Source of the DNA: Sphingopyxis sp.
GTDB taxonomy: Bacteria; Pseudomonadota; Alphaproteobacteria; Sphingomonadales; Sphingomonadaceae
DNA: 64,000 bases
Direction of reading: 5' to 3'
NCBI RefSeq assembly: GCF_050725615.1
Contig: NZ_JBOHHU010000004.1
Coordinates: 17,096 to 81,095, forward strand
Positions 16,751-52,783 of this stretch are shown here, in pieces. Position numbers and translations under genes: made by a program. Position 1 is the first letter of the stretch; each line of letters opens with the position of its first letter. The notes beneath the pieces were generated by a model. The model had not been told where the DNA came from and did no database searches. It saw only the letters and a list, made by a program, of their open reading frames with translations.

Positions 16751-16795
16751 CGGCGCTGCTGCGGCGCCGCGAGCCGCATGAGCAGGAGATGATCA

Positions 16796-20567: not shown

Positions 20568-20673
20568 AGCGCCCTTCGGGTGCGGCACAGGTTTGATTTT
20601 GCGGTTTCCTTTGCCGGGCGGGCGGGCTAGTCCCTCGCAAGCGGCAGGCAGATAAAAAAGGGAATATGTTTCG

Positions 20674-21384
20674 GTGAACTTTCGTTTGGCTATCGCTAGC
20701 CTGACCGCCGCCTGCCTGTTGGCCGGCTGTGGCAGTCGCCCGCAACTCACGAGCACACCGACGCTTCAGGTCACGGACGGCAATGCGCTGCCCGCGCCGA
20801 CCGGCACCGACCTGGTCGGTGAGACGCGTCCCTATCTGATCGGTCCGTTCGATCGGCTCAGCGTCGATGTCTATGGTGTTCCCGACCTCAGCAAGCAGGT
20901 CCAGACCGATGCCGCCGGCCGGATCCAGTTGCCGCTGGTCGGCGAGATTCAGGCGTCGAACCAGACGACCGCGCAACTTGCCGAAGCGATCGAGCAACGG
21001 CTGACCCGCTTCGTCCGCCGTCCCGACGTCAGCGTCAATGTAACCGAATCGGTCAGCCAGGTGCTCACCGTCGATGGCCAGGTGATGCAGCCGGGCCTCT
21101 ATCCGGTGGTCGGCAAGATGTCGCTGATGCGCGCCGTCGCGCTCGCCAAGGGCACGACCGAATTTGCCAAGCTCGACGATGTGGTGATCTTCCGCACCGT
21201 CGGCGGCCAGCGCATGGCGGCGCTCTATAATCTGAAAGCGATCCGGACCGGCGTGTATGACGATCCCGAAGTCTTCGCCAACGACGTTGTCGTCGTCGGC
21301 GATTCGCCGGGCCGCCGCCTGTTCAAGGATATTCTGGCGACGACGCCGTTGCTGGTGTCCCCCATCGTCGCGCTCATCAATTAA
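20674..21384 (+). CDS. wza: Polysaccharide export lipoprotein (OPX/Wza family)
   Basis: Lipobox LAGC, YLIGPFD.L PES-type motif, SLBB domain, hydrophobic C-terminal helix. Confidence 0.88.
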   Translation: MNFRLAIASLTAACLLAGCGSRPQLTSTPTLQVTDGNALPAPTGTDLVGETRPYLIGPFDRLSVDVYGVPDLSKQVQTDAAGRIQLPLVGEIQASNQTTAQLAEAIEQRLTRFVRRPDVSVNVTESVSQVLTVDGQVMQPGLYPVVGKMSLMRAVALAKGTTEFAKLDDVVIFRTVGGQRMAALYNLKAIRTGVYDDPEVFANDVVVVGDSPGRRLFKDILATTPLLVSPIVALIN

Positions 21385-21411
21385 GACCTGCAGGAAGTTC
21401 GAACTCGTTCC

Positions 21412-36303: not shown

Positions 36304-36382
36304 TCTTTGCCCGAAGCTTGTCCATAGACCTCCCGCCATCGGCCCGCGCCGCTGGGTGACCGAACAGGAAATTATAGACTCT

Positions 36383-37444
36383 ATGAGCGTTGTAATTCAG
36401 CCGATTGCGGGCCGCCGCCAACGCTATGCGCTGGTCGGGTGCGGGCGGATTTCGGCCAATCATTTCGCCGCGCTCGAAGCGCATGGCAACAGCGTCGAAA
36501 TCGTCGACGTTTGCGACATCGATCCCGCCGCGCTGGCGAAGGCTACGGAGCGTACAGGCGCGCGCGGCCATGCCTCGCTGACCGAGATGCTCAAGACGAC
36601 CGACGCCGACGCCGTGATCGTCACGACGCCGAGCGGGCTGCACCCGGCGCAGGTGATCGAGATCGCCGAATCCGGACGCCACGTCATTTCCGAAAAGCCG
36701 ATGGCGACGCGCTGGCGCGATGGCCTGCGCATGGTGGAGGCCTGCGACAAGGCAGGCGTCCAGCTGTTCATCGTCAAGCAGAACCGCCGCAACGCGACGC
36801 TGCAACTGCTCAAACGCGCCGTCGAGAGCGGCCGTTTCGGGCGCATCTATATGGTCGCGGTCAATGTGTTCTGGACGCGGCCGCAGGATTATTACGACAG
36901 CGCCGCCTGGCGCGGCACCTGGGAGTTCGACGGCGGCGCGCTGATGAACCAGGCCAGCCATTATGTCGACCTGCTCGACTGGCTGGGCGGCCCGATCGAA
37001 AGCCTGCACGCCTATACCGCGACGCTGGCGCGCAATATCGAGGTCGAGGATACGGCGGTGATCAATGTCCGCTGGCGTTCGGGCGCTCTCGGCTCGATGA
37101 ACGTCACGATGCTGACCTACCCCAAGAATCTCGAAGGTTCGATCACGATCCTCGGTGAAAAGGGCAGCGTGAAGGTCGGCGGCGTCGCCTTGAACAAGAT
37201 CGAGAATTGGGACTTCGACACCCCGCATGCCGATGACGACCAGGTTGCTTCGGCTTCCTACGACACCGGCTCGGTCTATGGCTTCGGCCACCAGCTCTAT
37301 TATGACAATGTCATCGGAACGCTGGCGGGCGACTGCGACGCCGCAACCGACGGCCGCGAAGGGCTGCGCAGCCTTGAAGTGTTGATCGCCTCCTACCTCT
37401 CGGCGCGCGACGGCAAGCGCGTGTCGCTGCCGCTGGACTATTGA
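36383..37444 (+). CDS. wbpB: Gfo/Idh/MocA 3-oxidase (WbpB/WlbA)
   Basis: [35 protein letters not shown]. Confidence 0.88.
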
Positions 37445-38007
37445 TGGCGGCGAAGGTTCACGACACCGCCATCGTCGATGCCGGCGCCGAAATCGGCGAC
37501 GGCACCGCGATCTGGCACTGGGTGCATGTGTGCGGCACCGCGCGGATCGGCAGCGGCTGTTCGCTCGGCCAGAATGTCTATGTCGGCAACGACGTCACCA
37601 TCGGCAACAATGTCCGCATCCAGAACGGCGTCTCGGTCTATGACGCGGTGACGCTGGAGGACGATGTTTTCTGCGGCCCCGCGATGGTCTTCACCAATGT
37701 CTATAATCCGCGCTCGGCGGTGCCGCGCAAGGACGAGTATCGCGAGACGATCGTGCGCAAGGGCGCGACGCTCGGCGCGAACTGCACCATCGTGTGCGGG
37801 GTGACGATCGGCGCCTATGGCTTCGTCGGCGCAGGATCGGTGATCAACCGCGATGTGAAGCCCTATGCGCTGATGGTCGGTGTCCCCGCGCGGCAGATCG
37901 GCTGGATGTGCGAATGCGGCGTGCGGCTCGAAGGCGCGGGCGATGTGACCTGCGGCGCGTGCAGCCGCGACTATCAGATAACAGACGAGGAATGTTCTCC
38001 CCGATGA
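37444..38007 (+). CDS. wbpD: Hexapeptide N-acetyltransferase (WbpD/WlbB)
   Basis: [31 protein letters not shown]. Confidence 0.9.
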
Positions 38008-39119
38008 GCGACGTGATCGAATTCAACGACCTGAAGGCCCAATATCGCGCGGTGAAGACCTCGGTCGACGCCCGCATCCAGACGGTACTCGACCATGGCC
38101 AATATATCATGGGCCCCGAGGTCGCCGAGCTCGAAGAGAAGCTGGTCGCCTATACTGGCGCGAAGCATTGCATCGGCGTCGCCTCGGGGACCGAGGCGCT
38201 GTTGATCGCGCTGATGGCGCTCGACATCGGCCCCGGCGACGAGGTGATCACGACCTCGGCGACCTTCGTCGCCACCGTCGAAGTCGTCGCGCTGGTCGGC
38301 GCGACTCCGGTGTTCGTCGATATCGACCCCGCGACCTCGACGATCGATCCGCAGGCGGTGAAGGCGGCGATTTCGGACAAGACCCGCGCCATCATCCCCG
38401 TCTCGCTCTATGGCCAATGCGCCGACATGGACGCGATCAACGCGATCGCCGAGCCGCTGGACATCGCGGTGATCGAGGACGGCGCGCAGAGCTTTGGCTC
38501 GACCTATAAGGGCCGCCGCAGCGGCAGCACCAGCGCGATCGGCTGCACCAGCTTCTTCCCCGCCAAGCCGCTCGGCTGTTATGGTGACGGCGGCGCGATC
38601 TTCTGCGATGATGATGCGCTTGCGCAGGCGTGCCGCGAAATCCGCATCCATGGCCAGTCGCGGCGTTTCCACCACACGCGCGTCGGGGTCGGCGGGCGGC
38701 TCGACACGATCCAGGCGGCGGTGCTGCTCGCCAAGCTCGAAATCTTCGACGAAGAGATCGCGCGGCGGCAGGCGCTCGGTGCGCGCTATCTGGCGGCTTT
38801 TGCAGGGCACAACGCGCTCGAACTGCCGATGATCGCCGACGACCGCACCAGCGTCTGGGGCTATTTCGCGCTGAAATCGCCGAACCGCGCCGCGATCCTT
38901 GACGCGCTCAAGGCTGCCGGCGTGCCGAGCGGGGTGCATTATCCCGAGCCGATGCACGTCCAGCCGGCGTATAGGGACAAGTGCCGCGTCGCGGGCGGCA
39001 TGGCCGAGACCGACCGCTGGTCAAGCCAGGTATTCAGCCTGCCGATGCACGCTTACCTCACCGACGAAGCGCAGGACCGCATCATCGCCGCGGTGCTGGC
39101 GGGGGCCGGCGCGGCCTGA
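38004..39119 (+). CDS. wbpE: DegT/DnrJ aminotransferase (WbpE/WlbC)
   Basis: [36 protein letters not shown]. Confidence 0.88.
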
Positions 39120-40415: not shown

Positions 40416-42242
40416 ATGTGCGGGTGGGGAATCCTGGTAAATCGCGACGGACGCCCCGTCGAACGGCCGCTGCTGCAGGCGATGGCCGATGCAGTCGCGC
40501 ACCGCGGTCCCGATGCCGAGGGGATCGTCGAACTCGGCCCGGTCGGCCTCGCGCATCGACGCCTCGCGGTGATCGACGTCAATGACCGGTCGAACCAGCC
40601 GATGCGCAGCCGCGACAATTGGCTGCAGTTCAATGGCGCCATCTATAATTTCCGCGAGCTTCGGACCGAGCTCGAAGCGCTCGGGCACATATTCCACACC
40701 AAGTCCGATACCGAGGTGCTGCTCCACGCGCTCGACCAATGGTGGGTCGATGCGCTGCCGCGCTTGCAGGGGATGTTTTCCTTCTGCTTCTATGATGCGC
40801 GGCGGCGCAAATTGCTGCTCGCGCGCGACCGCTTCGGCATCAAGCCGCTCTGCTATCATCTGTCGGACCGGGTTTTCATCGCGGGATCCGAAGCGAAACA
40901 GTTGCTCGCGACCGGCCTCGTCGGATCGGCGCCCGACCACAGCGTGCTGCGCACCTTCCTCGAACATGGGCGCCTCAACCTCGACGAACGCAGCTTTTTT
41001 GCCGACGTCAAACTCATGCCGCCCGGCCAGTTGGCGGTCTATGACCTCGTCAGCGACCAGCTCGTCCAGATGCGCTGGTACGAGCTCAGCCTGCACGTCG
41101 AGCCGCGCGACATCGCCTATGACGAGGCTTGCGAACGGCTGCGCGCGCTGTTCGACGACGCGGTCCGGTCGCATCATGTCGCCAACGTCCCCGTCGGCGC
41201 CAGCCTGTCGGGCGGGGTCGACAGCTCGTCGATCGCGGCGGCGAGCGCGGCGGTGGTCGGCGACCCGGGGCAGTTCCCGCTGTTCACCATCTACCACGCC
41301 GACGATCGCCACGATGAACGCCGATATGCCGCCCAGGTGACCGGGCGTTTCGGCTTCCGACCGGTCGAAGTGCCGGTCTCGCTGCTCGATTATTACACCC
41401 CCGAATGGCTTGAAAGTTTCGCCTTTTCGCAGGACCAGCCGCTGCCCGGCGGCAGCCATTTCAACGAACATGCGCTGTTCAAGGCAGCGCATGAGGCGGG
41501 CGTGACGGTGATGCTCGACGGCCAGGGCGCCGACGAATATTTCGGCGGATATGGCGAATTCTGGCTCGCGGCGCAGCGCGCGGCGATCAAAAGCGGCAAT
41601 CTGGCCGAGGTCGGCCGCAACCTGCGCGGGCGCAGTCTGACCAACGCCGAGCCGATGCCGCTCACCGTCCGCAAGATGGTCGCCGCGTTCCTGCGGCGCG
41701 AGAGCGATGCGTCGCCGCTGATGGCCGGGCTGTGGCGCGGCAAGGGCGCAGCGCGCCACGCCTATGCGCCGCCCAAGGATTTCCGCCCGCTATCGATCGA
41801 CGAGCTGGTGCGGTCGAGCATCCCCTATCAACTCCATTCGCAGGACCGCAACGCGATGCAGTTCGGCATCGAATCGCGCGTTCCGTTCCTCGACCACCGG
41901 CTGGTCGAATTCGTCTGCAGCCTGCCGACCGAATATCTGGTCGGTGGCGGCTGGCAGAAGCGGATTTTCCGCGACGCGATGGCGGAATTGCCCGACGATA
42001 TCCGCTGGCGGCGCAACAAGATCGGCTTTTCGTCGCCCGACGCCGAATTCGGCGTTCAATATCCCGACCGGCTCGCGGCGATGCTCGACGATGCGGTTTC
42101 GACCCTCGCGCCGCTGCTCGACGCGGCGCAGCTCCGCCAGCGCCTCGACCGCTATCGCCTCGATCCCAGCCTTTACGATCCCGCCATATTTCGCTTGATC
42201 AGCCTCGCCGCCTGGGTCAGGCGGTTTGCGGTTTCATTATAG
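40416..42242 (+). CDS. asnB: Asparagine synthase-like glutamine amidotransferase (glycan amidation)
   Basis: N-terminal Cys2, HRGPD, HRRLAVID, RDRFGIKPL, LSGGVDSS, RVPFLDH. Confidence 0.9.
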   Translation: MCGWGILVNRDGRPVERPLLQAMADAVAHRGPDAEGIVELGPVGLAHRRLAVIDVNDRSNQPMRSRDNWLQFNGAIYNFRELRTELEALGHIFHTKSDTEVLLHALDQWWVDALPRLQGMFSFCFYDARRRKLLLARDRFGIKPLCYHLSDRVFIAGSEAKQLLATGLVGSAPDHSVLRTFLEHGRLNLDERSFFADVKLMPPGQLAVYDLVSDQLVQMRWYELSLHVEPRDIAYDEACERLRALFDDAVRSHHVANVPVGASLSGGVDSSSIAAASAAVVGDPGQFPLFTIYHADDRHDERRYAAQVTGRFGFRPVEVPVSLLDYYTPEWLESFAFSQDQPLPGGSHFNEHALFKAAHEAGVTVMLDGQGADEYFGGYGEFWLAAQRAAIKSGNLAEVGRNLRGRSLTNAEPMPLTVRKMVAAFLRRESDASPLMAGLWRGKGAARHAYAPPKDFRPLSIDELVRSSIPYQLHSQDRNAMQFGIESRVPFLDHRLVEFVCSLPTEYLVGGGWQKRIFRDAMAELPDDIRWRRNKIGFSSPDAEFGVQYPDRLAAMLDDAVSTLAPLLDAAQLRQRLDRYRLDPSLYDPAIFRLISLAAWVRRFAVSL

Positions 42243-42295: not shown

Positions 42296-43609
42296 TTGCT
42301 TGCCCGATTGCTCAAACTGCGACACTCCTCCTTCCTGCGCGGCGCGGCGACGCTGTCGGGCGGACAGGTTATCGCCACGGCGGTCAGCTTCGGTTTCGCG
42401 CCGATCCTCAGTCGCCTTTATTCGCCCGCCGATTATGGCGTGCTGGCGACCTATATGTCGATCGCGGTCATCCTCGCGGCGGTCGCCAACCTCCAGATGG
42501 CGCGCGCGCTGGTGGCAGAGGCCGATGAGGAACAGGCACGCGCACTGCTTGGACTAAGTTTGCTGCTGGCGTTCGGCTTTGCCGCGCTGACGCTGGTCGG
42601 GGTTCTGGTCACCGGCGTGGCCGGCGCAAAAGGCGTCGAGGAGCTTGGTTTCTGGCTGTTGCTGCTGCCCGCCACGGTTCTCGCTTCGGGGACCGGGAGC
42701 GCGCTGCTCGGCTGGGCGAACCGCCATCATCATTATCGCCTGATGAGCGGCTATCAGATCGTCAATGTCGTCATTTCGTCGGGCGGCGCTCTGGCGCTGG
42801 CGTGGGGCGGCTTCGGTGCGCGCGGGTTGATGATCGGATATTTCCTCGGCCAGCTCGCCGCTTTCCTGTGGGTGTGGATCGGCAGCCGCGCCAGCCTCCC
42901 CGGGCTGCGCGGCCTGTCGTGGAGCGATATGCGTACGGCGGGGCTTGCCCATCGCAACTATGCGCTGTGGACCACGCCCACCTCGATGATCGAACAGGTG
43001 TCGGGGGCATCGCCGGTGCTGGTCCTGTCGCTGTGGGGCAATATGCTCGATATCGTCGGCCATTATAACCGCGCGCGCGGCCTGTTGATGTTGCCCGTCG
43101 GCATATTGGGCAGCGCGATCGGGCAGGTTTTTTTCCGCCGCGCCGCGCAGGATATCGCGCGCGACGGTCATTGCCGCCCGCTGTTCTGGCGGCTGGTGGC
43201 GGCGATGAGCGCGATCAGCATCCCGAGCTTCGCCATCCTCGCGGTGATTGCGCCTCAGCTCTTCGTCTTTGTCCTCGGCCCGCAATGGGACGAGGCGGGG
43301 CATATCGCGCGCATCCTCGCGCCGGTCATGGCGTTGCAACTGATCGTCATGCCCGCGTCGAAGGTGCTGTGGCTCTATCATCGCCAGCGGCTCGACTTTT
43401 TCCTGTCGATCTTTTTCGCGGTATCGACCACCGTTGCCGTTGCTTCGGTGGCCTTTCTGGGCTTCTCGCCCGAAATCGCCATCGACGTGTTTGCGGGCGT
43501 GCAGATATTGTTATACCTCGTTTATCTCAGCAGCAGCATCCTGATCGTCGAGCGCGATCATCGGAGCAGACAGGGACTGGCCGCAGACGCGGCACCGGCC
43601 AAACCATGA
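42296..43609 (+). CDS. wzx: Wzx-type oligosaccharide flippase
   Basis: Multi-TM; PILSRLYSPADYG, FVLGPQWDEAG; TTG start with GAGGA RBS inferred. Confidence 0.85.
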   Translation: MLARLLKLRHSSFLRGAATLSGGQVIATAVSFGFAPILSRLYSPADYGVLATYMSIAVILAAVANLQMARALVAEADEEQARALLGLSLLLAFGFAALTLVGVLVTGVAGAKGVEELGFWLLLLPATVLASGTGSALLGWANRHHHYRLMSGYQIVNVVISSGGALALAWGGFGARGLMIGYFLGQLAAFLWVWIGSRASLPGLRGLSWSDMRTAGLAHRNYALWTTPTSMIEQVSGASPVLVLSLWGNMLDIVGHYNRARGLLMLPVGILGSAIGQVFFRRAAQDIARDGHCRPLFWRLVAAMSAISIPSFAILAVIAPQLFVFVLGPQWDEAGHIARILAPVMALQLIVMPASKVLWLYHRQRLDFFLSIFFAVSTTVAVASVAFLGFSPEIAIDVFAGVQILLYLVYLSSSILIVERDHRSRQGLAADAAPAKP

Positions 43610-44214
43610 TCACGATCGTCGACTATGATGCGGGGAATCCGCGCTCGATCATCAACATGCTCCACTATCTGGGGCATCGTGCCGAGCTGACCGGCGATCC
43701 CGACAAGGTCGCCAAGGCCGACCGGCTGATCCTGCCCGGGGTCGGCAAGTTCGATTGGGGCATGCAGCGACTGCACGACAAAGGCCTGTCCGCGCCGCTC
43801 GACGAAGCGGTGAAGCGCGGAGTGCCGATGCTCGGCATCTGCCTCGGCGCGCAGTTGCTGACGCGCGGCAGCGACGAAGGACAATTGCCGGGGTTCGGCT
43901 GGGTCCCCGCAAGGACCGTCGCCTTCGATCGTGCTCGTCTTGATCCGCGGCTGAAGGTGCCGCATATCGGCTGGGCCGACACCGACTGGAACAAGAACCA
44001 TCGGATGGCGGTCGATACGCCCGAGGCGCGCTATTATTACGTTCACAGCTTTCATATCGCGTGTGACGATCCGGCGACCGAGCTGTGCAGCACGCAGCAC
44101 GGTTATCGCTTCACCGCCGGGGTCGAGAGGGACAATGTTTTCGGGGTCCAGTTCCATCCCGAAAAGAGCCTGTCGTTCGGCATGGCGGTCCTCACCCGCT
44201 ATGCGGGCCTCTGA
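43606..44214 (+). CDS. hisH: HisH-like glutaminase subunit (WbuY/HisH2 type)
   Basis: LPGVG, GICLGAQ, VPHIGW, YYVHS, QFHPEKS. Confidence 0.92.
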   Translation: MITIVDYDAGNPRSIINMLHYLGHRAELTGDPDKVAKADRLILPGVGKFDWGMQRLHDKGLSAPLDEAVKRGVPMLGICLGAQLLTRGSDEGQLPGFGWVPARTVAFDRARLDPRLKVPHIGWADTDWNKNHRMAVDTPEARYYYVHSFHIACDDPATELCSTQHGYRFTAGVERDNVFGVQFHPEKSLSFGMAVLTRYAGL

Positions 44215-44217
44215 GCG

Positions 44218-45048
44218 ATGAGGCCCGCGCTGCCCAACCTCGTCGTCATCGGTGCCATGAAATGCGGCACGACCAGCCTCAACGATTATCTCGACCTCCA
44301 TCCCGACGTGCATATGGCGCCGGACAAGGAGATCAACTTCTTCTCGGGCGAAAATGCCCACCGCTCGCTCGACTGGTATTGCGCGCAATATGACGGCACA
44401 AAAGCCGTGCGCGGCGAGGCGTCGCAGAATTATACCAAGAGCCATCACCCCTTCTACAAGGGCGCGCCCGAGCGGATGGCGGCGATCATTCCCGATGCGA
44501 AGCTGATCTATCTCGTCCGCGATCCTATCGAGCGCTATCGCTCGCACATTGTCGAAAATTATGTCGGCGAAACGGTCCAGGAAGACATCGCCTGGAACCT
44601 GGCCAACGACCATCAGTTCCAGACCGGCAAATATGCCTGGCAACTGCGCTTTTTCCTCGAGCATTTTCGGATGGAACAGATTTTGGTGGTCGACAGCGAC
44701 GAGCTTAATCGCGCGCGTCACGAAACGATGAACGACATCTTCGCCTTCCTCGGCCTCGACGCGATCGCCGACGAAAAAGCCTTTGCGTTCAAGTCGAACA
44801 CCAATGCCTCGAACGGCGTGCCCAGCCGCTGGCGAATGGCGCTTCCCTATCGCGCCGCGCGCAAGCTGGCGCCCTTCGACCTCGATGCGCAGCTCAGCCG
44901 TCCGGCGATCAGCCGGATACTGTTCCCGGGCCTCGAAAAACCCGACCTGTCCGCCGACCAGGTCGATGAACTGCGCAGCCGCTATGCCCCCGAAGTCGCC
45001 CAATTGCGCGCGCTGACCGGGCAGAGCTTTGCGAAGTGGCAGGTCTGA
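44218..45048 (+). CDS. PAPS-dependent sulfotransferase
   Basis: 5'-PSB loop IGAMKCGTTSL, KEINFF, GEASQNY, 3'-PB motif VRDPIERYRS. Confidence 0.88.
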   Translation: MRPALPNLVVIGAMKCGTTSLNDYLDLHPDVHMAPDKEINFFSGENAHRSLDWYCAQYDGTKAVRGEASQNYTKSHHPFYKGAPERMAAIIPDAKLIYLVRDPIERYRSHIVENYVGETVQEDIAWNLANDHQFQTGKYAWQLRFFLEHFRMEQILVVDSDELNRARHETMNDIFAFLGLDAIADEKAFAFKSNTNASNGVPSRWRMALPYRAARKLAPFDLDAQLSRPAISRILFPGLEKPDLSADQVDELRSRYAPEVAQLRALTGQSFAKWQV

Positions 45049-45825
45049 ATGCGCCGCATTCGTGTGATCCCCGTGCTGACGATCGACCGCGACCGGCGTC
45101 TGGTCAAGACCGTCGCCTTTGGCAAGCGCACCTATATCGGCGACCCGATCAACGCGGTGCGCATCTTCAACACCAAGATGGTCGACGAGATTTTGCTGCT
45201 CGACATCGATGCCAGCGTCGATGGTCGCGGACCCGATTTCGAAGCGATCGGCGATATCGTCGAAGAAGCCTTTCTGCCGATGGGCTATGGCGGCGGCATT
45301 CGCAGCGTCGAGGACGCGGCGAAACTCTTCGCGCTCGGGCTCGAAAAGGTCGTGCTGTCGACCGAAGCGCTGGCGCAGCCCGGGCTGGTGACCGCGATTG
45401 CCGAACGTTTCGGGGCGCAGGCGGTCGCGGTGGCGCTGCCCTATGCCAAAAAGCTGCTCGGCGGACAGCAGGTGCTGGCCCGCAGCGGCAAGACCAGGAC
45501 CGGGCAATCGCCGGTCGAGGCGGCCAAGGCGATGGCCGCTGCCGGCGCGGGCGAAATCATCGTCACCAGCATCGATCGCGACGGCAAATGGACGGGGTTC
45601 GATCTGCCCACGATCACCGCAGTGGCGGAAGCGGTCGATGTCCCGGTGGTGGCGTGCGGCGGCGCATCGGCGCTCGGCGATTTTCTGCCTGTGATTCAAG
45701 GCGGCGGCGCATCGGCGGTGGCGGCGTCGAGCCTGTTCGTCTATCGCGCCCAGAATCAGGGCGTGCTGATCTCCTATCCCGATGAGGCCGATCTGCGCGA
45801 CCAATTATTTGCCAAGCTCGACTGA
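45049..45825 (+). CDS. hisF: HisF-like cyclase subunit (WbuZ/AglZ/HisF2 type)
   Basis: RVIPVL, GDPINAVRIFN, YGGGI, SIDRDG..G.D, CGGA. Confidence 0.9.
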   Translation: MRRIRVIPVLTIDRDRRLVKTVAFGKRTYIGDPINAVRIFNTKMVDEILLLDIDASVDGRGPDFEAIGDIVEEAFLPMGYGGGIRSVEDAAKLFALGLEKVVLSTEALAQPGLVTAIAERFGAQAVAVALPYAKKLLGGQQVLARSGKTRTGQSPVEAAKAMAAAGAGEIIVTSIDRDGKWTGFDLPTITAVAEAVDVPVVACGGASALGDFLPVIQGGGASAVAASSLFVYRAQNQGVLISYPDEADLRDQLFAKLD

Positions 45826-45835
45826 ACGGGATCCC

Positions 45836-46993
45836 GTGACCGAAGCCACCTCTCCCCTGCCCACCTCGTCGACGCGCGTCTGCACGCGCACCGTGATGGA
45901 CGGCAGCGACCCCGACATCGTCTTCGATGAAGAGGGCGTGTCGAACCATTGGCACGAATATCAGGCGCTTATGGCGACCCAGCCGAGCGCCGAGGAAAAA
46001 CAGGCGCGGCTCGACGCGCTGCTCGCCGACGTGCGCGCCGATGGAGAAGGCAAGCCTTATGACTGCGTCATCGGCCTGTCGGGCGGGGTGGACAGCAGCT
46101 ATGTCACCTGGCTCGCCAAGCAATGGAATCTGCGCCCGCTGATCGTCCATTTCGACAATGGCTGGAACAACGAGCTCGCGGTCCGCAATATCGAAAATAT
46201 CTGCAAGAAGCTGGGTTTCGAACTCCACACCTTCGTGATGGACTGGGAGGAGTTTCGCGACCTCCAGCGCGCCTATTTCAAGGCGTCGGTCGTCGATCTG
46301 GAAGTACCGACCGACCATATGATCTCGGGTGCGCTCTATCGTCTCGCGGCGAAGCACAAGCTTAAATATATGCTCTCGGGCCTCAATTTTGCGACCGAAT
46401 CGGTGATGCCGCCGTCGTGGAACTATGCGAAGTTCGACCTTGAAAATATTCGTAATATTCACAAAAAGTTCGGAACCAAGCCGCTGAAGAAGCTGCCCGC
46501 GCTCGGCGTCTGGCAAAAGGCCTGGTATCAGCTGGTCCGCGGCATCCACAGCGAGGCCGTGCTCGACCTGATCGACTATAACAAGGCCGAGGCGAAGGCG
46601 CTGCTGATCCGCGAACTCGACTGGGTCGACTATGGCGGCAAACATTATGAATCGCTCTTCACCCGCTTTTATCAGGGTTATATCCTCCCGCGGAAATTCG
46701 GGGTCGACAAGCGCAAGGCGCATCTGTCGAACCTGATCCTGTCGGGCCAGGCGACGCGCGAGGAGGCGCTGCGCGAGCTGCAGCAGCCGACCTATGACGA
46801 AGCGATGCAGGAACGCGACAAGGCCTATGTGCGCAAGAAGCTCGGCTTCACCGAGAGCGAGTTCGAGGCGGTGCTGAGCCTGCCCAACCAGCGCCACGAG
46901 GTGTACGGCACCGATCAGGCCCACCGCGAACGCTATTTCCGCATCGTCGGAACGCTGGGGAAAGCGATGCGCGCCGTCGGGCTGAAGCGCTAG
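45836..46993 (+). CDS. N-acetyl-sugar amidotransferase (WbuX/WbpG family)
   Basis: C..T.MD, YDCVIGLSGGVDSS PP-loop, HFDNGWN, YGGKHYES; GTG start inferred. Confidence 0.9.
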   Translation: MTEATSPLPTSSTRVCTRTVMDGSDPDIVFDEEGVSNHWHEYQALMATQPSAEEKQARLDALLADVRADGEGKPYDCVIGLSGGVDSSYVTWLAKQWNLRPLIVHFDNGWNNELAVRNIENICKKLGFELHTFVMDWEEFRDLQRAYFKASVVDLEVPTDHMISGALYRLAAKHKLKYMLSGLNFATESVMPPSWNYAKFDLENIRNIHKKFGTKPLKKLPALGVWQKAWYQLVRGIHSEAVLDLIDYNKAEAKALLIRELDWVDYGGKHYESLFTRFYQGYILPRKFGVDKRKAHLSNLILSGQATREEALRELQQPTYDEAMQERDKAYVRKKLGFTESEFEAVLSLPNQRHEVYGTDQAHRERYFRIVGTLGKAMRAVGLKR

Positions 46994-46997
46994 GCCG

Positions 46998-48125
46998 ATG
47001 CGCGCAAGCTGCGACCTGTTGGGAGCCCCGCTCAGGATATTGATGATTTCGCCGCAGCCCTGGACCGGGCTGCAGGTATCGAAGCATCATTATGCCCGCG
47101 AACTCGCAGCGCTCGGCCATCATGTCTTTTTCGTCAACCCGCCGGGCGGCAGCGACCGCGTCCGCCTGTCGCCGAGCGACCATCCGGCGATCACGCTGGT
47201 CGATCACCCCCGTATGCCGCTCGCCCGCGCCAAATATCGCGCGCGCTGGCTGTTCATCGCGGCCGCGCGCTCTCGCGCCAGGGCGCTTGCCCGCGCGATC
47301 GGGCCGTTCGACTTGCTGTGGGATTTCGACAATGCGCGGCAGTTCGCCGATCATCGGCCTTTTCGCGCCCCGCTCTCGATCCTGCATGTCGTCGACATGC
47401 TCGATCCGGGCGACATCATGCATCGCGGCGCCGACCTGATCTTGGGCGTCGACGCATCGCTGATCGCCGAGATCGCGCTATCGCCCGCGCCGCGCCACGT
47501 CGTCGGCCATGGCCTGTCGCCGCTGTTCGCCGCGGCGGCGCGGAGCCGCCTCGCATCGCCGCGCACGCGCGTCGCCGACGCGCCGGTCATCATCGGCTTC
47601 ATCGGCAACCTTGCCCAGCCGGCGATGGATCGCGCCCGTGTCGCGGCGCTCGTCGCCGCGCATCCCGCGTGCTGCTTTCGCTTCATCGGCCCCGTTGCGG
47701 GGGAAACCCCGGAAATCCGGGCCTGGGCCGACAGGCTGATCGCGCAGCCGAACGTCGAGATGGCCGGCCTGTTGACCGGCGATGCGTTGATCGCGGCGAC
47801 CGGCGACGTCGATATCTGGCTGCTGCCCTATGATGTCGCGCGCGATCGCAATCGCGGGGTCAATTCGCACAAATTGCTCGAATATTTCGCGCTCGGCGGC
47901 GAAGTGGTGAGCAGCCCGATCGCGGCGCAGGCCGACGCGCCGGGCATATTCATGGCGCCGCGCGACGATCCGGACGCCATCGCGGGGCAACTCGACGCCG
48001 CCATTGCGGCGGTCCGCGAAGGCCGGGATACAGGAGCCCGCGCGCGCGCCGACCTCGCTTTGGCCAACAGCTACCGCGCCAATCTCGATCGCATCGCCGC
48101 TTATCTGAAGGACAGCACGACATGA
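46998..48125 (+). CDS. Glycosyltransferase (GT-B)
   Basis: SKHHYA, FIGNL, NSHKLLEYFALG. Confidence 0.78.
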   Translation: MRASCDLLGAPLRILMISPQPWTGLQVSKHHYARELAALGHHVFFVNPPGGSDRVRLSPSDHPAITLVDHPRMPLARAKYRARWLFIAAARSRARALARAIGPFDLLWDFDNARQFADHRPFRAPLSILHVVDMLDPGDIMHRGADLILGVDASLIAEIALSPAPRHVVGHGLSPLFAAAARSRLASPRTRVADAPVIIGFIGNLAQPAMDRARVAALVAAHPACCFRFIGPVAGETPEIRAWADRLIAQPNVEMAGLLTGDALIAATGDVDIWLLPYDVARDRNRGVNSHKLLEYFALGGEVVSSPIAAQADAPGIFMAPRDDPDAIAGQLDAAIAAVREGRDTGARARADLALANSYRANLDRIAAYLKDSTT

Positions 48126-48988
48126 GCATGGAGATCAGCGCGAACAGCCGGCTGGCCAACCGCATCCTGCGCCGGCTCGGCCAATTCGCCCGGCTCAATC
48201 GCGAGGTCGAGGCGAGCGTCGACGGCCGCCCGGTCGCCATACCCGTCTCCGCCGGGTTGATGGCCGAACTGACCGAGCCGTGGATGCTCGCCCTGCTACG
48301 CCGGTTGATGGGCATGGCGCCGGGCGCCTTCGTCGATGTCGGGGTCAATCTCGGCCAGACGCTGATCAAGACGAAGACGATCGACCCGGCGCGCCGCTAT
48401 GTCGGTTTCGAGCCCAATCCGGTGTGCGTCCATTATGTCGAGGAACTGGTCGCGGCGAACGACTGGCGCGATTGCCGCGTGGTGCCCGCCGGGCTCGGCC
48501 TTAAGAGCGGTATCGTGACGCTCGAACTCTACCACGGCCGCAGCGGCGATTCGGCCGCGTCGATCGTCGAGGGGTTTCGTCCGGGCGAGGCGATCACCTT
48601 TCGCAAGACCGTCGCGATCCTAGGCGCCGACGACCTGCCCGACGACCTGCTCACCGCGCCGGTCGGCCTGATCAAGATCGATGTCGAGGGCGCCGAAGCC
48701 GACGTCATCGACGCCCTGGCGCCCGTCATCGCGCGCGATCGTCCGCTGGTGTCGATGGAGATCCTGCCCTGCTACGACAGCGGGCGCACCGACCGCATCG
48801 CACGCCAGGCGCGGATCGAGGCGCGGTTCGCCGACCTCGATTATCGTATCCTGCGCGTGCTGCACGAAGGGCGCGGCGGCTCCTATGAGCTGACACCGAT
48901 CGACAGCATCGGCATCCATGGCGACCTGGTGCTGTGCGAATATGTGATCTGCCCCGCCGAACGCGTCGACGCATGCCTCGCCGGCTGA
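48122..48988 (+). CDS. FkbM family methyltransferase
   Basis: FVDVGVNLGQ, GFEPN, KIDVEGAE. Confidence 0.88.
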   Translation: MSMEISANSRLANRILRRLGQFARLNREVEASVDGRPVAIPVSAGLMAELTEPWMLALLRRLMGMAPGAFVDVGVNLGQTLIKTKTIDPARRYVGFEPNPVCVHYVEELVAANDWRDCRVVPAGLGLKSGIVTLELYHGRSGDSAASIVEGFRPGEAITFRKTVAILGADDLPDDLLTAPVGLIKIDVEGAEADVIDALAPVIARDRPLVSMEILPCYDSGRTDRIARQARIEARFADLDYRILRVLHEGRGGSYELTPIDSIGIHGDLVLCEYVICPAERVDACLAG

Positions 48989-49814: not shown

Positions 49815-51779
49815 TCAGCCCGCCAGCGGCGCCTGGACGTCGGCGCTGGCCTGATTGACCTCTTCGGGGGGGCGAAACTCGGGGACAAGGTCGTGGAGCA
49901 GGTCAAGGCATTCCTCTGCCCGGCCATGGTCCATCGCCTCGCGCAGGGTGTCGAGCTTGGCCGACAAATCGCTCCATTCGAGCATCGCCTCGCGCGCCTG
50001 CATGATGCGGCTGTGGCTCGTCGGCTTGGGGTCGTCGCCGATCAGCAGCTCTTCATAGAGTTTCTCGCCCTGGCGCAGTCCGACCTCGGCAATCTCGATG
50101 TCGCCATCGGGATGATGCTCGTCACGCACCGTCAGGCCCGACAGATTGATCATCGTACGCGCGAGTTCGATGATCCGCACCGGTTTGCCCATATCGAGCA
50201 CGAACACCTCGCCGCCCTTCGCCATCGCGCCCGCCTGGATGACGAGCTGTGCCGCCTCGGGGATGGTCATAAAGAAGCGCGTGACGTCGCGGTGCGTGAC
50301 CGTCACCGGACCGCCATTCTTGATCTGCTCGCGGAACAAGGGGACGACCGACCCGCTCGACCCCAGCACATTGCCGAAGCGCACCATCGCGAAAATCGTC
50401 TTGCTGCCGCGGCTTGCGAGACCCTGCAGGACCAGTTCGCACACGCGTTTCGACGCACCCATGACATTGGTCGGGCGCACCGCCTTGTCGGTGCTGATCA
50501 GCACGAAATTGGTGACCCCGACCCGGTCGGCTTCGGTCGCCATGAACAAGGTGCCGCAAACATTGTTGCCGATGCCGGCGATCGGGTTCGCTTCGACCAG
50601 CGGCACATGCTTGTAGGCGGCGGCGTGGAAGATCGTATCGGGCCGCCAGCGCGCGAGCAGGCGCCGGACGGTGGACTGGTCGGTGACGTTGCCGAGTTCC
50701 TCGATCAGTTCGGGCTGCTGTCCGTCGGGCAGTTCGGCGATCGCCGCCTGCAATTCCTGGCCGATCGCATAAAGGCCATATTCGGATGATTCGACCAGGA
50801 TCAGCTTGTCGGGACGCATCGTCACGATCTGACGGGTCAGCTCGCTGCCGATCGATCCGCCGGCGCCGCTGACCATCACCGTCTTGCCGACGATCGTCCG
50901 TCCGAGCAGCAACTGGTTCGGCGGCACCGGATCGCGCCCGAGCAAATCCTCGATCTGCACGTCGCGCAGGTCGCTGACCGATACCTGTTCGTCGATGATC
51001 TGCCGCATATCGGGCAGCATGCGGACGCGAATGGGCCAGTCTTCGAGTGATTTCATCACCCGGCGGCGCTTCGAGCGCGTGACATGCGGCAGCGCGAGCA
51101 GCACGTCGGTGACGCCATAGCTGTCGACCAGATAGGGAAGTTTCGGGCGCGAATAGATCGGCACGCCGTCGATGATCTCGCCCTCGATCTTGCGATCGTC
51201 GTCGATGAAGCCGACGAGGCGCATCGCGGGATCGCTGCGCAGCGCCATCGCCAGCTGCTGCCCGGCCTCGCCCGCGCCGTAAATCAGCGCGATCGACTGT
51301 TGCTGGATATCGCGGCGCTTGAGCAGGTCGACGACGGCATAGCGCGCGACGATGCGGGTCATCGCCAGGAAAAGCAGGAAGATGATCGGCTGGATCACCG
51401 CCACGGTGCGCGGGACCCCGTGCATGCCGACGATACCGAAAATGACGATCATCGGGATCGCATAGAGCATGACCGAATAGGCCAGCCCGACCATCGTCCG
51501 GCCGCCCGAAAAGCGCAGAATCGAGCTGTAGGTGCCGCGCATCAGGAAGATCGGAAGCCAGCTCGACAGGGCGATCACCGATGCGAGGCCGACCGCCGAT
51601 TCGAAAATCCGCCATTGTCCGAGCCGCAACGAAAAGGCGACAAGCACCGCCGCGACGCAGAGCAAGGCATCGGCGACGATCAGGATCGCGCGCTTCTCGC
51701 TACGCCCCAGCGCGACGAGCGACGCCAGAACGGCCAGGATCCGCTCCTCGACCACTCCCCAGATCCGCCCCAAGATCAT
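49815..51779 (-). CDS. UDP-GlcNAc 4,6-dehydratase, WbpM/CapD/PglF family
   Basis: Four N-terminal TMs, IYGAGEAG, GAGGSIGSE, HAAAYKHVP, STDKAVRP, RFGNVLGSSGSV; start at 51779. Confidence 0.92.
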   Translation of the reverse strand: MILGRIWGVVEERILAVLASLVALGRSEKRAILIVADALLCVAAVLVAFSLRLGQWRIFESAVGLASVIALSSWLPIFLMRGTYSSILRFSGGRTMVGLAYSVMLYAIPMIVIFGIVGMHGVPRTVAVIQPIIFLLFLAMTRIVARYAVVDLLKRRDIQQQSIALIYGAGEAGQQLAMALRSDPAMRLVGFIDDDRKIEGEIIDGVPIYSRPKLPYLVDSYGVTDVLLALPHVTRSKRRRVMKSLEDWPIRVRMLPDMRQIIDEQVSVSDLRDVQIEDLLGRDPVPPNQLLLGRTIVGKTVMVSGAGGSIGSELTRQIVTMRPDKLILVESSEYGLYAIGQELQAAIAELPDGQQPELIEELGNVTDQSTVRRLLARWRPDTIFHAAAYKHVPLVEANPIAGIGNNVCGTLFMATEADRVGVTNFVLISTDKAVRPTNVMGASKRVCELVLQGLASRGSKTIFAMVRFGNVLGSSGSVVPLFREQIKNGGPVTVTHRDVTRFFMTIPEAAQLVIQAGAMAKGGEVFVLDMGKPVRIIELARTMINLSGLTVRDEHHPDGDIEIAEVGLRQGEKLYEELLIGDDPKPTSHSRIMQAREAMLEWSDLSAKLDTLREAMDHGRAEECLDLLHDLVPEFRPPEEVNQASADVQAPLAG

Positions 51780-52561
51780 GCGGAGACGCTCTCCCCGGTC
51801 TTGAGGAAGCGCTGGCTTTGCCCTTCGAGCACCAGCGCGGTGAGCTTGCCGCTGCGATAGGCGCCGGTATCGATGCCGATGCGGTTCGCGCGGCAATCGA
51901 CATCGGGGGTGATCGTGTGGCCGTGAACGACCATCACGCCATGATCCCGGTCGTCGTCGAGAAACTCGTCGCGAATCCAGCGCAGGTCGTGAACCTGCTG
52001 CTGGTCGAGCGGGCGTCCAGGAAAAATCCCTGCATGAACAAAGAGATAGTCGCCAATCTGCACATAATCCACCATCGAGCGGAACAAACGAACATGCGAA
52101 GCCGGTATGCCGGCGTGAATTTTGGCGACCAGAGCCTCTCTATCCCCGAAAATGGCCGCTTCTTCAAGTCCGTAGCTTTCGAGCGCCTGTTCGCCGCCAT
52201 AACGGATCCAGCCGGGCAGTTGCGAATGGGCCCCGTCGAGAATCTCGAGCAGCGCCTCTTCATGGTTGCCCATCAGCAGATGCATCTCGTCGATGCCCGC
52301 CGGTTTGGTCAACAAACGCTCGACGACCTGTGCCGATTGCGGGCCGCGATCGATGAGATCGCCGAGCATCACGAGATGGACGGTGTCGGCGGGATTACGC
52401 GCGCCCTCATCGGCGATCCGCGCGATCAGCGCGTCGAGCAGGTCGAGCCGGCCGTGAACATCGCCGATCGCATAGACGCGCGTGCCCGGCGGCACTTGTG
52501 GCCAATCTTCCTGGGCGGGTTCGGGGGCGGCCTCCTTGCGGCCAAAAAGTCTTTTCAACAT
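51776..52561 (-). CDS. Metallophosphoesterase, PPP-family protein phosphatase-like
   Basis: GDVHG, GDLIDRG, GNHE, HAG, HGHT, IDTG motifs; its TGA overlaps the ATG of the wbpM-like gene. Confidence 0.88.
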   Translation of the reverse strand: MLKRLFGRKEAAPEPAQEDWPQVPPGTRVYAIGDVHGRLDLLDALIARIADEGARNPADTVHLVMLGDLIDRGPQSAQVVERLLTKPAGIDEMHLLMGNHEEALLEILDGAHSQLPGWIRYGGEQALESYGLEEAAIFGDREALVAKIHAGIPASHVRLFRSMVDYVQIGDYLFVHAGIFPGRPLDQQQVHDLRWIRDEFLDDDRDHGVMVVHGHTITPDVDCRANRIGIDTGAYRSGKLTALVLEGQSQRFLKTGESVSA

Positions 52562-52783
52562 GGTCTTACCGATTGATCCTGACGCCCAGCCCCATCGCCG
52601 GTTCACCGCTGCGGCGCGCCGACAACGCGCGAAGGGGCGATAGGGATGCCTATGCCCCGCCATTTACCCGCGATTGGCGCAATGACAAGGATCACAGCCG
52701 GGTCATTTTGATGCGCGGTTAAGCGGATAACAACCAAAATCTCCTAGGCGTGGGCGCATGAACCCCCGATATATGAGCGCGCG

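What the first reader, a model, noticed from the sequence alone, without database searches (positions are those of the whole stretch)
43606..46993. Sulfotransferase nested inside the hisH-hisF-wbuX acetamidino cassette
Seen: hisH (43606-44214), a sulfotransferase with both PAPS-binding motifs (44218-45048), hisF (45049) and a WbuX/WbpG amidotransferase (45836) are packed with gaps of 3, 0 and 10 nt. Established: HisH/HisF paralogs plus WbuX/WbpG convert N-acetyl to acetamidino groups (E. coli O145 wbuXYZ; P. aeruginosa PAO1 hisH2/hisF2/wbpG). I do not recall a sulfotransferase splitting that trio. Inference: the glycan carries both a cationic amidine and a sulfate, possibly on the same residue, giving a zwitterionic sulfated capsule. 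No cysD/N/C is in the window, so PAPS must come from elsewhere.
Basis: partly seen in the sequence, partly recalled or inferred. Interest (0 to 1): 0.75.

Follow-up and report, generated by a model that had tools for sequence, protein, structure and literature searches.

The report
Sulfotransferase inside acetamidino sugar operon
A Sphingopyxis-like bacterium carries a sugar-sulfating enzyme gene wedged inside the three-gene unit that puts positively charged amidine groups on surface sugars; the same pairing recurs in two bacterial phyla, so its capsule is predicted, but not shown, to carry both sulfate and amidine.

Summary
hisH2 (43606-44214), a PAPS-type sulfotransferase (44218-45048), hisF2 (45049-45825) and wbuX (45836-46993) are packed with 3, 0 and 10 nt gaps. 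They lie in a ~38-kb Wza/Wzc/Wzx/Wzy polysaccharide locus.

The sulfotransferase (ST) looks intact. It has both PAPS loops and the catalytic Glu, folds confidently, and most resembles heparan-sulfate 3-O- and N-sulfotransferases.

It belongs to a distinct ST clade (SH-aLRT 99). About 17 of 27 loci sampled from this clade have the hisH/hisF/wbuX trio next to the ST, in Alphaproteobacteria and Bacteroidota. About ten of those are nested exactly as here. None of 73 sister-clade STs has the trio.

Within the genus, the ST occurs in exactly the 8 of 101 genomes that carry this WbuX type. An unannotated glycosyltransferase family (46998-48125) is an even steadier partner.

The pairing is rare among WbuX cassettes generally: 1 of 70 WbuX-bearing genomes in a 401-genome class sample. 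PAPS supply (cysD-cysNC-cysQ-like) lies elsewhere in the genome.

Best reading: a dedicated glycan O-sulfotransferase that decorates the same repeat unit as the amidinating enzymes. That unit probably contains a 2,3-diacetamido-uronic acid. The chemistry, including whether both groups sit on one residue, is unproven. This is a new variant of a known kind, of moderate interest.

The parts
43606..44214 (+). hisH2/WbuY-type glutaminase subunit (202 aa)
   Evidence: TIGR01855 4e-53 and PF00117. It is a second copy; the housekeeping hisH is on contig C71. Its start overlaps the Wzx stop as ATGA.
44218..45048 (+). PAPS-dependent sulfotransferase (276 aa), heparan-sulfate 3-OST/NST-like branch; no signal peptide or TM segment is evident in the sequence
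   Evidence: PF00685 and PF13469. K15, E38, R101 and S109 are invariant in relatives. PDB profile hits: 3rnl 2.6e-37, 3-OST-1/3/5 and NDST1 about 1e-28. AF2 pLDDT 91.3. Foldseek TM 0.65-0.68 to 3-OST/NDST against 0.4-0.5 to cytosolic SULT/TPST.
45049..45825 (+). hisF2/WbuZ/AglZ-type ammonia-channel subunit (258 aa)
   Evidence: NF038364 scores 300.6 bits (cut-off 310) and TIGR03572 248 bits, against hisF proper at 173 bits. The housekeeping hisF and hisA are on C71.
45836..46993 (+). WbuX/WbpG-type N-acetyl sugar amidotransferase (385 aa)
   Evidence: TIGR03573 scores 261 bits against a cut-off of 203. PP-loop GLSGGVDSS is intact. Weak PDB hit to the Legionella NASAT 8wex.
46998..48125 (+). 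Unannotated GT-B-like glycosyltransferase family ('GT46998'); the steadiest partner of the ST clade
   Evidence: Only a weak PF13692 hit. No NCBIfam or PDB sequence match. Homologues (23-80% id) lie in the locus of most ST-clade members that have enough flank, including those without the trio. They also lie beside wbuX-hisH-hisF-WbpB/D/E in G100 and G264, which lack an ST.
48122..48988 (+). FkbM-family methyltransferase
   Evidence: TIGR01444 9e-19. It follows the GT in several relatives.
40416..42242 (+). AsnB-type glutamine amidotransferase (candidate uronamide former)
   Evidence: PF00733 and GATase_7; TIGR01536 3e-112. It co-occurs with ST plus trio in L001, L085, L086, L093, L104 and L105.
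42296..43609 (+). Wzx flippase (start inferred at TTG 42296)
   Evidence: PF13440 2e-23. Start candidates are listed.
36197..39119 (+). WbpB-like oxidoreductase (36197-37444), WbpD-like N-acetyltransferase (37441-38007) and WbpE-like aminotransferase (38004-39119): a 3-amino/3-acetamido uronic acid pathway
   Evidence: GFO_IDH_MocA, Hexapep and DegT hits. ATGA overlap at 38004.
49815..55184 (.). WbpM-like dehydratase (49815-51896, - strand), metallophosphoesterase (51776-52663, - strand), WbpI-like UDP-GlcNAc 2-epimerase (52784-53899, + strand) and WbpA/WecC-like dehydrogenase (53802-55184, + strand)
   Evidence: Pfam hits.
19161..23634 (+). Wzy_C/ligase-like gene, Wza exporter and Wzc tyrosine kinase co-polymerase: the export machinery of the locus
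   Evidence: PF04932, PF02563/SLBB, and Wzz+GNVR+P-loop hits.

Best explanation
The ST is a working, cytoplasmic, PAPS-dependent carbohydrate O-sulfotransferase. It belongs to a distinct, uncharacterised clade that has become a standing accessory of one type of acetamidino operon: HisH2/HisF2/WbuX plus a dedicated glycosyltransferase.

Proposed route:
1. The WbpA/B/E/D/I-like enzymes of the locus make a UDP-2,3-diacetamido-2,3-dideoxy-hexuronic acid.
2. WbuX adenylates an N-acetyl carbonyl through its PP-loop and replaces the oxygen with ammonia delivered by HisH2/HisF2. This gives an acetamidino group.
3. AsnB may amidate the carboxylate.
4. GT46998 adds the residue to the Und-PP-linked repeat unit.
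5. The ST, using PAPS from the cysD-cysNC operon elsewhere in the genome, sulfates a free hydroxyl of that repeat unit before Wzx flips it.
6. Wzy, Wzc and Wza polymerise and export it.

The predicted product is a surface polysaccharide carrying both amidinium and sulfate charges.

Shown here: gene identities, intact motifs, the fold, PAPS genes in the genome, conserved linkage across phyla and exact co-occurrence within the genus.

Inferred: the acceptor, the step at which sulfation occurs, and every feature of the product.
For: The enzyme looks intact:
- Both PAPS loops and the catalytic Glu are present and invariant.
- The profile matches 3-OST and NDST at about 1e-28.
- The model is confident, and its closest folds are glycan STs.

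The packing fits one operon: ATGA, 3, 0 and 10 nt junctions, with no excess of internal promoter or terminator sites.

PAPS supply is present. cysD, cysNC and a cysQ-like gene lie on contig C11.

Clade-level linkage:
- An 18-member clade (SH-aLRT 99) holds all 10 trio-linked STs in the tree. None of the 73 sister STs is trio-linked.
- More trio-linked loci came from assemblies, metagenomes and congeners.
- Gene order varies (hisH-ST-hisF; ST-hisH-hisF; hisH...ST-hisF), yet linkage persists in Sphingomonadales, Rhodobacterales, Caulobacterales and Bacteroidota.

Genus-level 2x2: the ST is present in exactly the 8 of 101 genomes with the orthologous WbuX. It is absent from the other 93, of which 16 have other WbuX types.

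ST identity among these congeners is 54-91%, while WbuX stays at 83-95%. The ST is kept while its alleles turn over.

The diamino-uronic pathway and GT46998 co-occur with this WbuX type even without an ST. This places the cassette on that sugar.
Against:
- Six to nine clade members have no trio nearby. Some of these sit on short flanks.
- In G836 the trio locus lacks the ST, which sits in a second polysaccharide locus. The coupling is therefore facultative.
- A 2,3-diacetamido-uronic acid has only O-4 free. If it is 4-linked, the sulfate must go on another residue.
- Co-inheritance within one locus inflates the genus-level association.
- The HisF2 score is just under the NCBIfam cut-off (300.6 against 310).
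Confidence: 0.65

Rival explanations
1. The enzyme is an N-sulfotransferase. It sulfates the free 3-amino group of the WbpE product (UDP-GlcNAc3NA-type intermediate), or another amino sugar. This would give a sulfamate as an alternative fate to N-acetylation and amidination.
For: NDST1's N-sulfotransferase domain matches almost as well as the 3-O-sulfotransferases (3.3e-27 against 7e-29; TM 0.65-0.67). The alphaproteobacterial motif KE-I-N-FF lacks the His of the 3-OST E-x-H-FF motif (the comparison with NST rests on my own knowledge). An aminotransferase that makes the free amine is in the locus.
Against: Bacteroidota members of the same clade have KE-I-H-FF, like the 3-OSTs. Nothing distinguishes N- from O-specificity at this level of similarity. 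Dedicated N-acetyltransferases are present. To my knowledge, no bacterial glycan sulfamate of this kind is known.
Confidence: 0.1
2. The ST takes part in amidine formation itself. For example, it might activate the acetamido oxygen as a sulfate leaving group, or act as a structural subunit of a HisH2-ST-HisF2-WbuX complex.
For: It sits between the two subunits of the ammonia-delivering pair, with overlapping or abutting reading frames in several phyla.
Against: WbuX keeps its own PP-loop for adenylate activation. About 69 of 70 WbuX-bearing genomes in the class sample have no such ST. The characterised P. aeruginosa and E. coli systems work without one (established knowledge; the WbpG-HisF2 contact is reported in PMC11445079). 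ST-clade members occur without the trio. The position of the ST relative to hisH varies.
Confidence: 0.03
3. The ST is a hitch-hiking tailoring gene whose substrate is unrelated to the amidinated glycan. Candidates are another polysaccharide, a glycosphingolipid or a small molecule. Its position would then be an accident of cassette shuffling in a recombination-prone locus.
For: Polysaccharide loci are mosaics. The ST is far more diverged than its neighbours among congeners. In G836 the ST lies in a different polysaccharide locus. The genome has two other sulfotransferases.
Against: Linkage is kept across two phyla and several gene orders. It is confined to one ST clade. Co-occurrence within the genus is exact. 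The fold is closest to glycan STs, not to small-molecule SULTs.
Confidence: 0.12
4. The gene is an inactive relic or pseudo-enzyme.
For: None specific.
Against: The frame is full-length. Catalytic and PAPS-binding residues are invariant across 14-19 relatives. The fold is confident. GC3 matches the host.
Confidence: 0.03

Closest known systems
Pseudomonas aeruginosa O5 B-band O-antigen locus (wbpA-B-D-E, wzy, wzx, hisH2, hisF2, wbpG, wbpH, wbpI ... wbpM)
   Same: Both have a HisH2/HisF2 plus PP-loop amidotransferase trio followed by a glycosyltransferase. Both sit in a Wzx/Wzy locus with the WbpA/B/E/D/I-type pathway for 2,3-diacetamido-mannuronic acid and a WbpM-like dehydratase. HisF2 contacts WbpG in P. 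aeruginosa (PMC11445079).
   Different: P. aeruginosa has no sulfotransferase and no AsnB, and its product is an LPS O-antigen. Here the export genes are Wza/Wzc. Homology of GT46998 to WbpH was not tested.
E. coli O145 wbuX-wbuY-wbuZ and archaeal AglX/Y/Z acetamidino systems
   Same: The same three protein families. WbuX is above the TIGR03573 cut-off, and the best HisF hit is the AglZ/HisF2 model.
   Different: Those cassettes are contiguous, with no gene between the HisH and HisF paralogues, and they act on other sugars (this rests on my own knowledge).
Sphingomonas sp. LM7 'Cluster B' cell-surface polysaccharide locus (PMC11340318)
   Same: A sphingomonad Wzx/Wzy/Wzc locus with WbuX, HisF2, HisH, an AsnB-like amidotransferase, a PLP aminotransferase, an acetyltransferase, an MviM-type dehydrogenase and a sugar dehydrogenase. 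Transposon hits change colony morphology, and a wzy deletion gives a denser cell envelope.
   Different: No sulfotransferase is listed. The polymer structure is not reported there.
Heparan-sulfate 3-O-sulfotransferases, the NDST N-sulfotransferase domain, and the bacterial structural-genomics ST 3rnl
   Same: Same fold, PAPS loops and catalytic Glu.
   Different: Only 20-26% identity. The enzyme here is bacterial and cytoplasmic, and its acceptor is unknown. The clade has its own SQNY(T/S)KxH signature with a two-residue insert next to the acceptor side.
Sulfated bacterial capsule and EPS loci with in-cluster sulfotransferases (e.g. Vibrio sp. KMM 8419, PMC11641403; rhizobial LpsS/KpsS and cyanobacterial synechan, from my own knowledge)
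   Same: An ST gene sits inside a polysaccharide locus and relies on cysDNC-made PAPS. ST specificities are mostly unassigned.
   Different: Those loci carry no acetamidino cassette. In Vibrio the PAPS genes are inside the locus, whereas here they are elsewhere in the genome.

Membership tests
PAPS-dependent sulfotransferases (PF00685/PF13469), HS 3-OST/NST-like branch | 5'-phosphosulfate-binding loop K-x-G-T-[TS] | tested here: met
   14-MKCGTTS-20. K15 and G17 are invariant and T18 is invariant or nearly so.
PAPS-dependent sulfotransferases (PF00685/PF13469), HS 3-OST/NST-like branch | 3'-phosphate-binding motif R-x-P-x-x-R-x-x-S | tested here: met
   101-RDPIERYRS-109. R101, P103, R106 and S109 are conserved.
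PAPS-dependent sulfotransferases (PF00685/PF13469), HS 3-OST/NST-like branch | Catalytic base Glu in the (K/N)E-x-x-FF motif | tested here: met
   E38 is invariant. It aligns with the NEVHFF Glu of 3-OST-1 in the profile alignment.
PAPS-dependent sulfotransferases (PF00685/PF13469), HS 3-OST/NST-like branch | Sulfotransferase fold | tested here: met
   pLDDT 91.3. Foldseek probability 1.00 and TM 0.65-0.68 to 3rnl, 3-OST-1/3/5 and NDST1.
PAPS-dependent sulfotransferases (PF00685/PF13469), HS 3-OST/NST-like branch | Sulfate transfer from PAPS to a glycan acceptor | not testable with these tools
   Needs an enzyme assay or polymer chemistry.
WbuX/WbuY/WbuZ (WbpG/HisH2/HisF2) acetamidino cassette | WbuX-family PP-loop amidotransferase | tested here: met
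   TIGR03573 scores 261.2 bits against a cut-off of 203.2. SGGVDS loop present.
WbuX/WbuY/WbuZ (WbpG/HisH2/HisF2) acetamidino cassette | Dedicated HisF paralogue of the AglZ/HisF2/WbuZ type | tested here: inconclusive
   NF038364 is the best hit by far, but at 300.6 bits it falls just under the 310 cut-off. TIGR03572 scores 248 against 299.7. The gene is a paralogue; the housekeeping hisF is on C71.
WbuX/WbuY/WbuZ (WbpG/HisH2/HisF2) acetamidino cassette | Dedicated HisH paralogue | tested here: met
   TIGR01855 scores 180 bits against a cut-off of 105. It is the second copy in the genome.
WbuX/WbuY/WbuZ (WbpG/HisH2/HisF2) acetamidino cassette | Contiguous three-gene unit | tested here: not met
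   The ST separates hisH from hisF here and in about ten other loci.
WbuX/WbuY/WbuZ (WbpG/HisH2/HisF2) acetamidino cassette | Product carries an acetamidino group | not testable with these tools
   Needs NMR or MS of the polymer.
WbpA/B/E/D/I pathway to UDP-2,3-diacetamido-2,3-dideoxy-mannuronic acid | All five enzyme families present in the locus | tested here: inconclusive
   Domain-level hits are present for a dehydrogenase, a GFO/IDH/MocA oxidoreductase, a DegT aminotransferase, a hexapeptide acetyltransferase and a 2-epimerase. Equivalog-level identity to the Pseudomonas enzymes was not tested.
Characterised bacterial polysaccharide sulfotransferases (LpsS, KpsS, NodH, synechan Xss) | Orthology to a characterised member | not tested
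   No reference sequences were on hand. NCBIfam gave no ST model hit apart from a weak CJJ1420 domain match.

The most novel reading that the evidence does not exclude
The ST and WbuX act on one and the same residue. That would make a 4-O-sulfated 2-acetamido-3-acetamidino-2,3-dideoxy-hexuronic acid (or its amide), an intrinsically zwitterionic monosaccharide not described so far. The ST clade, the GT46998 family and this WbuX subtype would then form a co-evolving module for that sugar, spread between Alphaproteobacteria and Bacteroidota.
Probability: 0.15. Interest if true: 0.6.

Novelty: new variant of a known kind. Interest (0 to 1): 0.42.

Why it matters
Few bacterial polysaccharide sulfotransferases have an assigned acceptor. 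Here a well-delimited ST clade comes with a narrow genomic context: one WbuX subtype, one glycosyltransferase family and a diamino-uronic acid pathway. That makes its substrate guessable and testable in culturable Sphingopyxis strains.

If the prediction holds, these bacteria make a surface polymer combining fixed positive (amidinium) and negative (sulfate) charges. Such zwitterionic polysaccharides have unusual physical and immunological properties. Defined glycan sulfotransferases are also wanted for making sulfated polysaccharides by fermentation.

If the prediction fails, this is just one more tailoring gene in a mosaic capsule locus.

Tried and rejected
- Literature: 'acetamidino' with 'sulfotransferase' gave one irrelevant paper. 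'Acetimidoyl' with 'sulfated', and 'diacetamido' with 'sulfated', gave only reviews. I found no described glycan or locus that combines the two.
- Family-level sample: 400 genomes of the same family gave no ST hit. That sample held only six congeners. The genus-level search showed the ST is in 8 of 101 species genomes.
- ST as an activating step in amidine formation: rejected. The WbuX PP-loop is intact, most WbuX cassettes have no ST, and the ST clade also occurs without the trio.
- Recent horizontal insertion of the ST alone: GC3 gives no support.
- GT46998 annotation: NCBIfam, PDB sequence search and source names gave nothing beyond 'hypothetical protein'.
- Deciding between O- and N-sulfation from sequence or fold: not possible at 20-26% identity.

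Full report
**1. The observation**

- hisH runs 43606-44214. Its ATG overlaps the stop of the upstream Wzx gene as ATGA.
- A 276-aa ORF runs 44218-45048.
- hisF runs 45049-45825.
- wbuX starts with GTG at 45836 and ends at 46993.
- The gaps are 3, 0 and 10 nt.

- HisH: TIGR01855, 4e-53.
- The 276-aa ORF: Sulfotransfer_1 (1.4e-18) and Sulfotransfer_3 (1e-13).
- HisF: best hit is the AglZ/HisF2 acetamidino model NF038364 (7.8e-90). Its 300.6 bits fall just under the 310 cut-off. True hisF scores only 173 bits.
- WbuX: TIGR03573, 261 bits against a cut-off of 203.

The ST carries both PAPS loops, 14-MKCGTTS and 101-RDPIERYRS. WbuX keeps its PP-loop, GLSGGVDSS.

The window's hisH and hisF are paralogues. 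A housekeeping hisH-hisA-hisF set lies on contig C71.

Promoter-like and terminator-like sites across 36-50 kb are no commoner than in shuffles. None on the + strand falls inside the block. The ST's GC3 (0.78) matches its neighbours. The block therefore reads as part of one long operon.

**2. The setting**

The block lies in a roughly 38-kb polysaccharide locus, about 16.8-55.2 kb in the window. The locus contains:
- a Wzy_C-like gene, Wza and Wzc;
- several GT4 and GT2 transferases, a candidate Wzy and a WecA/WbpL-type initiating transferase;
- WbpB-like, WbpD-like and WbpE-like genes, two further hexapeptide acyltransferases, AsnB and Wzx;
- downstream of wbuX, a 375-aa weakly GT1-like protein ('GT46998'), an FkbM methyltransferase, a WbpM-like dehydratase, a WbpI-like 2-epimerase and a WbpA/WecC-like dehydrogenase.

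The locus ends at hslVU. This gene content matches the P. aeruginosa O5 type of pathway to 2,3-diacetamido-2,3-dideoxy-uronic acids, one of which WbpG amidinates. The comparison rests on established knowledge; homology here was tested only at domain level.

A similar sphingomonad locus has been touched experimentally. It is 'Cluster B' of Sphingomonas sp. LM7, which holds WbuX, HisF2, HisH, an AsnB-like gene, an aminotransferase, an acetyltransferase and an MviM dehydrogenase. It makes a cell-surface-associated polysaccharide and has no sulfotransferase (PMC11340318).

**3. Is the ST a real enzyme, and can it get PAPS?**

- K15, E38, R101 and S109 are invariant across 14-19 relatives.
- A family profile hits a bacterial ST structure (3rnl, 2.6e-37). 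It then hits heparan-sulfate 3-OST-1/3/5 and the NDST1 sulfotransferase domain at about 1e-28. E38 aligns with the catalytic Glu of 3-OST-1.
- The AlphaFold model is confident (pLDDT 91.3).
- Its closest folds are those same glycan sulfotransferases (TM 0.65-0.68). Cytosolic SULTs and tyrosyl-protein STs lie well behind at 0.4-0.5.
- No signal peptide or membrane segment is evident in the sequence, so the enzyme should work in the cytoplasm.
- The genome has one APS kinase. It is a CysN-CysC fusion (NF004035, 1074 bits), flanked by cysD and a cysQ-like PAP phosphatase on contig C11.

PAPS can be made, and the genes lie outside the locus.

**4. Is the arrangement chance?**

*ST-anchored loci.* I collected loci from species genomes, assemblies, metagenomes and congeners. 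I then located homologues of the window's genes by tblastn.

A tree of 91 STs splits into two groups.
- An 18-member clade (SH-aLRT 99) holds all 10 trio-linked STs in the tree and four more that are linked only to a GT46998 homologue.
- A 73-member sister group never has the trio nearby.

With the later loci added, about 17 of 27 sampled clade loci have hisH/hisF/wbuX next to the ST. Three gene orders occur.
- Nested hisH-ST-hisF-wbuX, as here: three further Sphingopyxis species genomes (G874, G803, G887), L001, L104, and the Bacteroidota or metagenomic loci L003, L005, L095 and L109/L110. L107 and L108 are partial contigs that show hisH-ST. Frames often overlap.
- ST-hisH-hisF-wbuX: Mameliella sp. 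CS4 (L086), Caulobacter sp. NIBR1757 (L087), L093, and a Bacteroidales MAG (L096) where unrelated AAA_14 and AbiEii genes have been inserted between the parts.
- AsnB-hisH-Wzx-acyltransferase-GT-ST-hisF-wbuX: Sphingopyxis sp. OPL5, Root1497, G815 and L105.

Linkage that survives three gene orders in two phyla argues for selection rather than accident.

*Rarity.* In a 401-genome sample of Alphaproteobacteria, 70 genomes carry WbuX. Only the window's own genome has a P0001-like ST beside it. The pairing is therefore rare among acetamidino cassettes.

*Within the genus.* Among 101 species genomes, the ST clade (54-100% identity) is present in exactly the 8 genomes that have the orthologous WbuX (83-100% identity). 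It is absent from the other 93, including 16 with other WbuX types at 37-47% identity. Part of this is simple co-inheritance of one locus. However, the ST alleles are much more diverged (54-91%) than hisF or wbuX (83-95%). The ST has been kept while its alleles turned over.

**5. What the ST is really tied to**

The steadiest partner is GT46998, not the trio.
- Homologues (23-80% identity) lie in the locus of most clade members that have enough flank.
- This includes Roseivivax, Rhodoligotrophos, Acuticoccus and L094, which lack the trio.
- A small hexapeptide acyltransferase often accompanies the GT.

GT46998 is itself rare. It occurs in 3 of 401 class genomes. In the two other genomes it sits in wbuX-hisH-hisF-WbpB-WbpD-WbpE-GT-FkbM blocks with no ST. 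This ties both the GT and this WbuX subtype to the diamino-uronic acid pathway. It also shows that the ST is an optional add-on.

Its trio locus has no ST at the GT|hisF junction. Its ST (53% identity) sits in a second polysaccharide locus next to a methyltransferase, a Wzx and an FkbM.

The coupling is therefore strong but not obligatory. This rules out a role for the ST in the amidination chemistry itself.

**6. Mechanism proposed**

Shown: the gene identities, the intact catalytic apparatus, the PAPS genes and the conserved linkage.

Inferred:
1. The locus builds a Und-PP-linked repeat unit containing a 2,3-diacetamido-uronic acid.
2. WbuX, with HisH2/HisF2, converts one N-acetyl to acetamidino. 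The HisF2-WbpG contact has been shown in P. aeruginosa (PMC11445079).
3. AsnB may convert the carboxylate to an amide.
4. GT46998 transfers the residue.
5. The ST adds O-sulfate to the repeat unit, or to its nucleotide-sugar precursor, at the cytoplasmic face before Wzx flipping.

If AsnB removes the carboxylate charge, sulfate would be the counter-charge to the amidinium. That would fit the frequent AsnB + trio + ST combination, but it is speculation.

Sulfation of the amidinated residue itself is possible only at O-4. I give that about 0.15.

**7. Comparison and novelty**

The parts are all known kinds: a WbuXYZ/WbpG-type cassette, a PAPS sulfotransferase and a Wzx/Wzy capsule locus. Three things are new.
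- A delimited, uncharacterised ST clade with its own SQNY(T/S)KxH signature.
- Its recurrent insertion in or beside the acetamidino operon.
- Its association with an unannotated glycosyltransferase family.

I found no paper describing a locus or a glycan that combines the two modifications. Recent work on sulfated bacterial capsules states that polysaccharide ST specificities are largely unknown (PMC11641403).

Earlier notes of this scan mention ST-like genes beside WbuX in other phyla, including an amidotransferase/ST-like/GT cassette in an actinobacterium. I did not test those. They suggest the theme may be broader.

**8. Verdict**

This is a new variant of a known kind, of moderate interest. 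The prediction of a polysaccharide with both amidinium and sulfate is specific and easy to test, but it is still only a prediction.

Noticed in passing
L185 (G836:C7:13000-29000) 6547-6739; L184 (G836:C25) 7502-8323: One congeneric genome has the same locus but with no ST between the GT and hisF; only about 190 nt lie there. Its ST homologue (53% identity) sits in a second polysaccharide locus: ST, methyltransferase, Wzx, ..., FkbM. This is a natural 'ST moved or absent' control strain.
   Followed up: partly
window 44218-45048 compared with L085, L186, L187, L188, L189: Among congeners the ST is 54-91% identical, while the flanking hisF and wbuX are 83-95% identical. Wzx is similarly diverged. 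The centre of the locus is a recombination mosaic.
   Followed up: partly
window 46998-48125: The 375-aa glycosyltransferase-like protein after wbuX has no NCBIfam or PDB sequence match and only 'hypothetical protein' names. It is nevertheless the most constant neighbour of this ST clade and of this WbuX subtype. It looks like an unannotated GT family, probably specific for diamino-uronic acids.
   Followed up: partly
L096 8003-12277: In a Bacteroidales MAG the ST/hisH/hisF/wbuX module is interrupted by two AAA_14/DUF4143 genes and an AbiEii toxin-like gene inserted between the parts.
   Followed up: no
G000:C9:7960-8766 and G000:C59:15714-16283: The genome has two further Sulfotransfer_1 genes, in open frames of 371 and 544 aa. 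Their contexts were fetched (L100, L101) but not analysed.
   Followed up: no
L099 (G000:C11:31000-42000) 4185-8342, - strand: cysD, a cysN-cysC fusion and a cysQ-like PAP phosphatase lie in a row. This is a complete PAPS-making and PAP-recycling set, outside any polysaccharide locus.
   Followed up: yes
window 17824-19092 and 24915-25775: The locus holds a second UDP-sugar dehydrogenase and a second FkbM methyltransferase. Two large ORFs (12840-14621 and 15405-16781) have no Pfam hit.
   Followed up: no
L109 6001-10685: In a 219-kb metagenome contig an FkbM methyltransferase lies between hisF and wbuX (hisH-ST-hisF-FkbM-wbuX-GT). Other tailoring genes can therefore also enter the cassette.
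   Followed up: no
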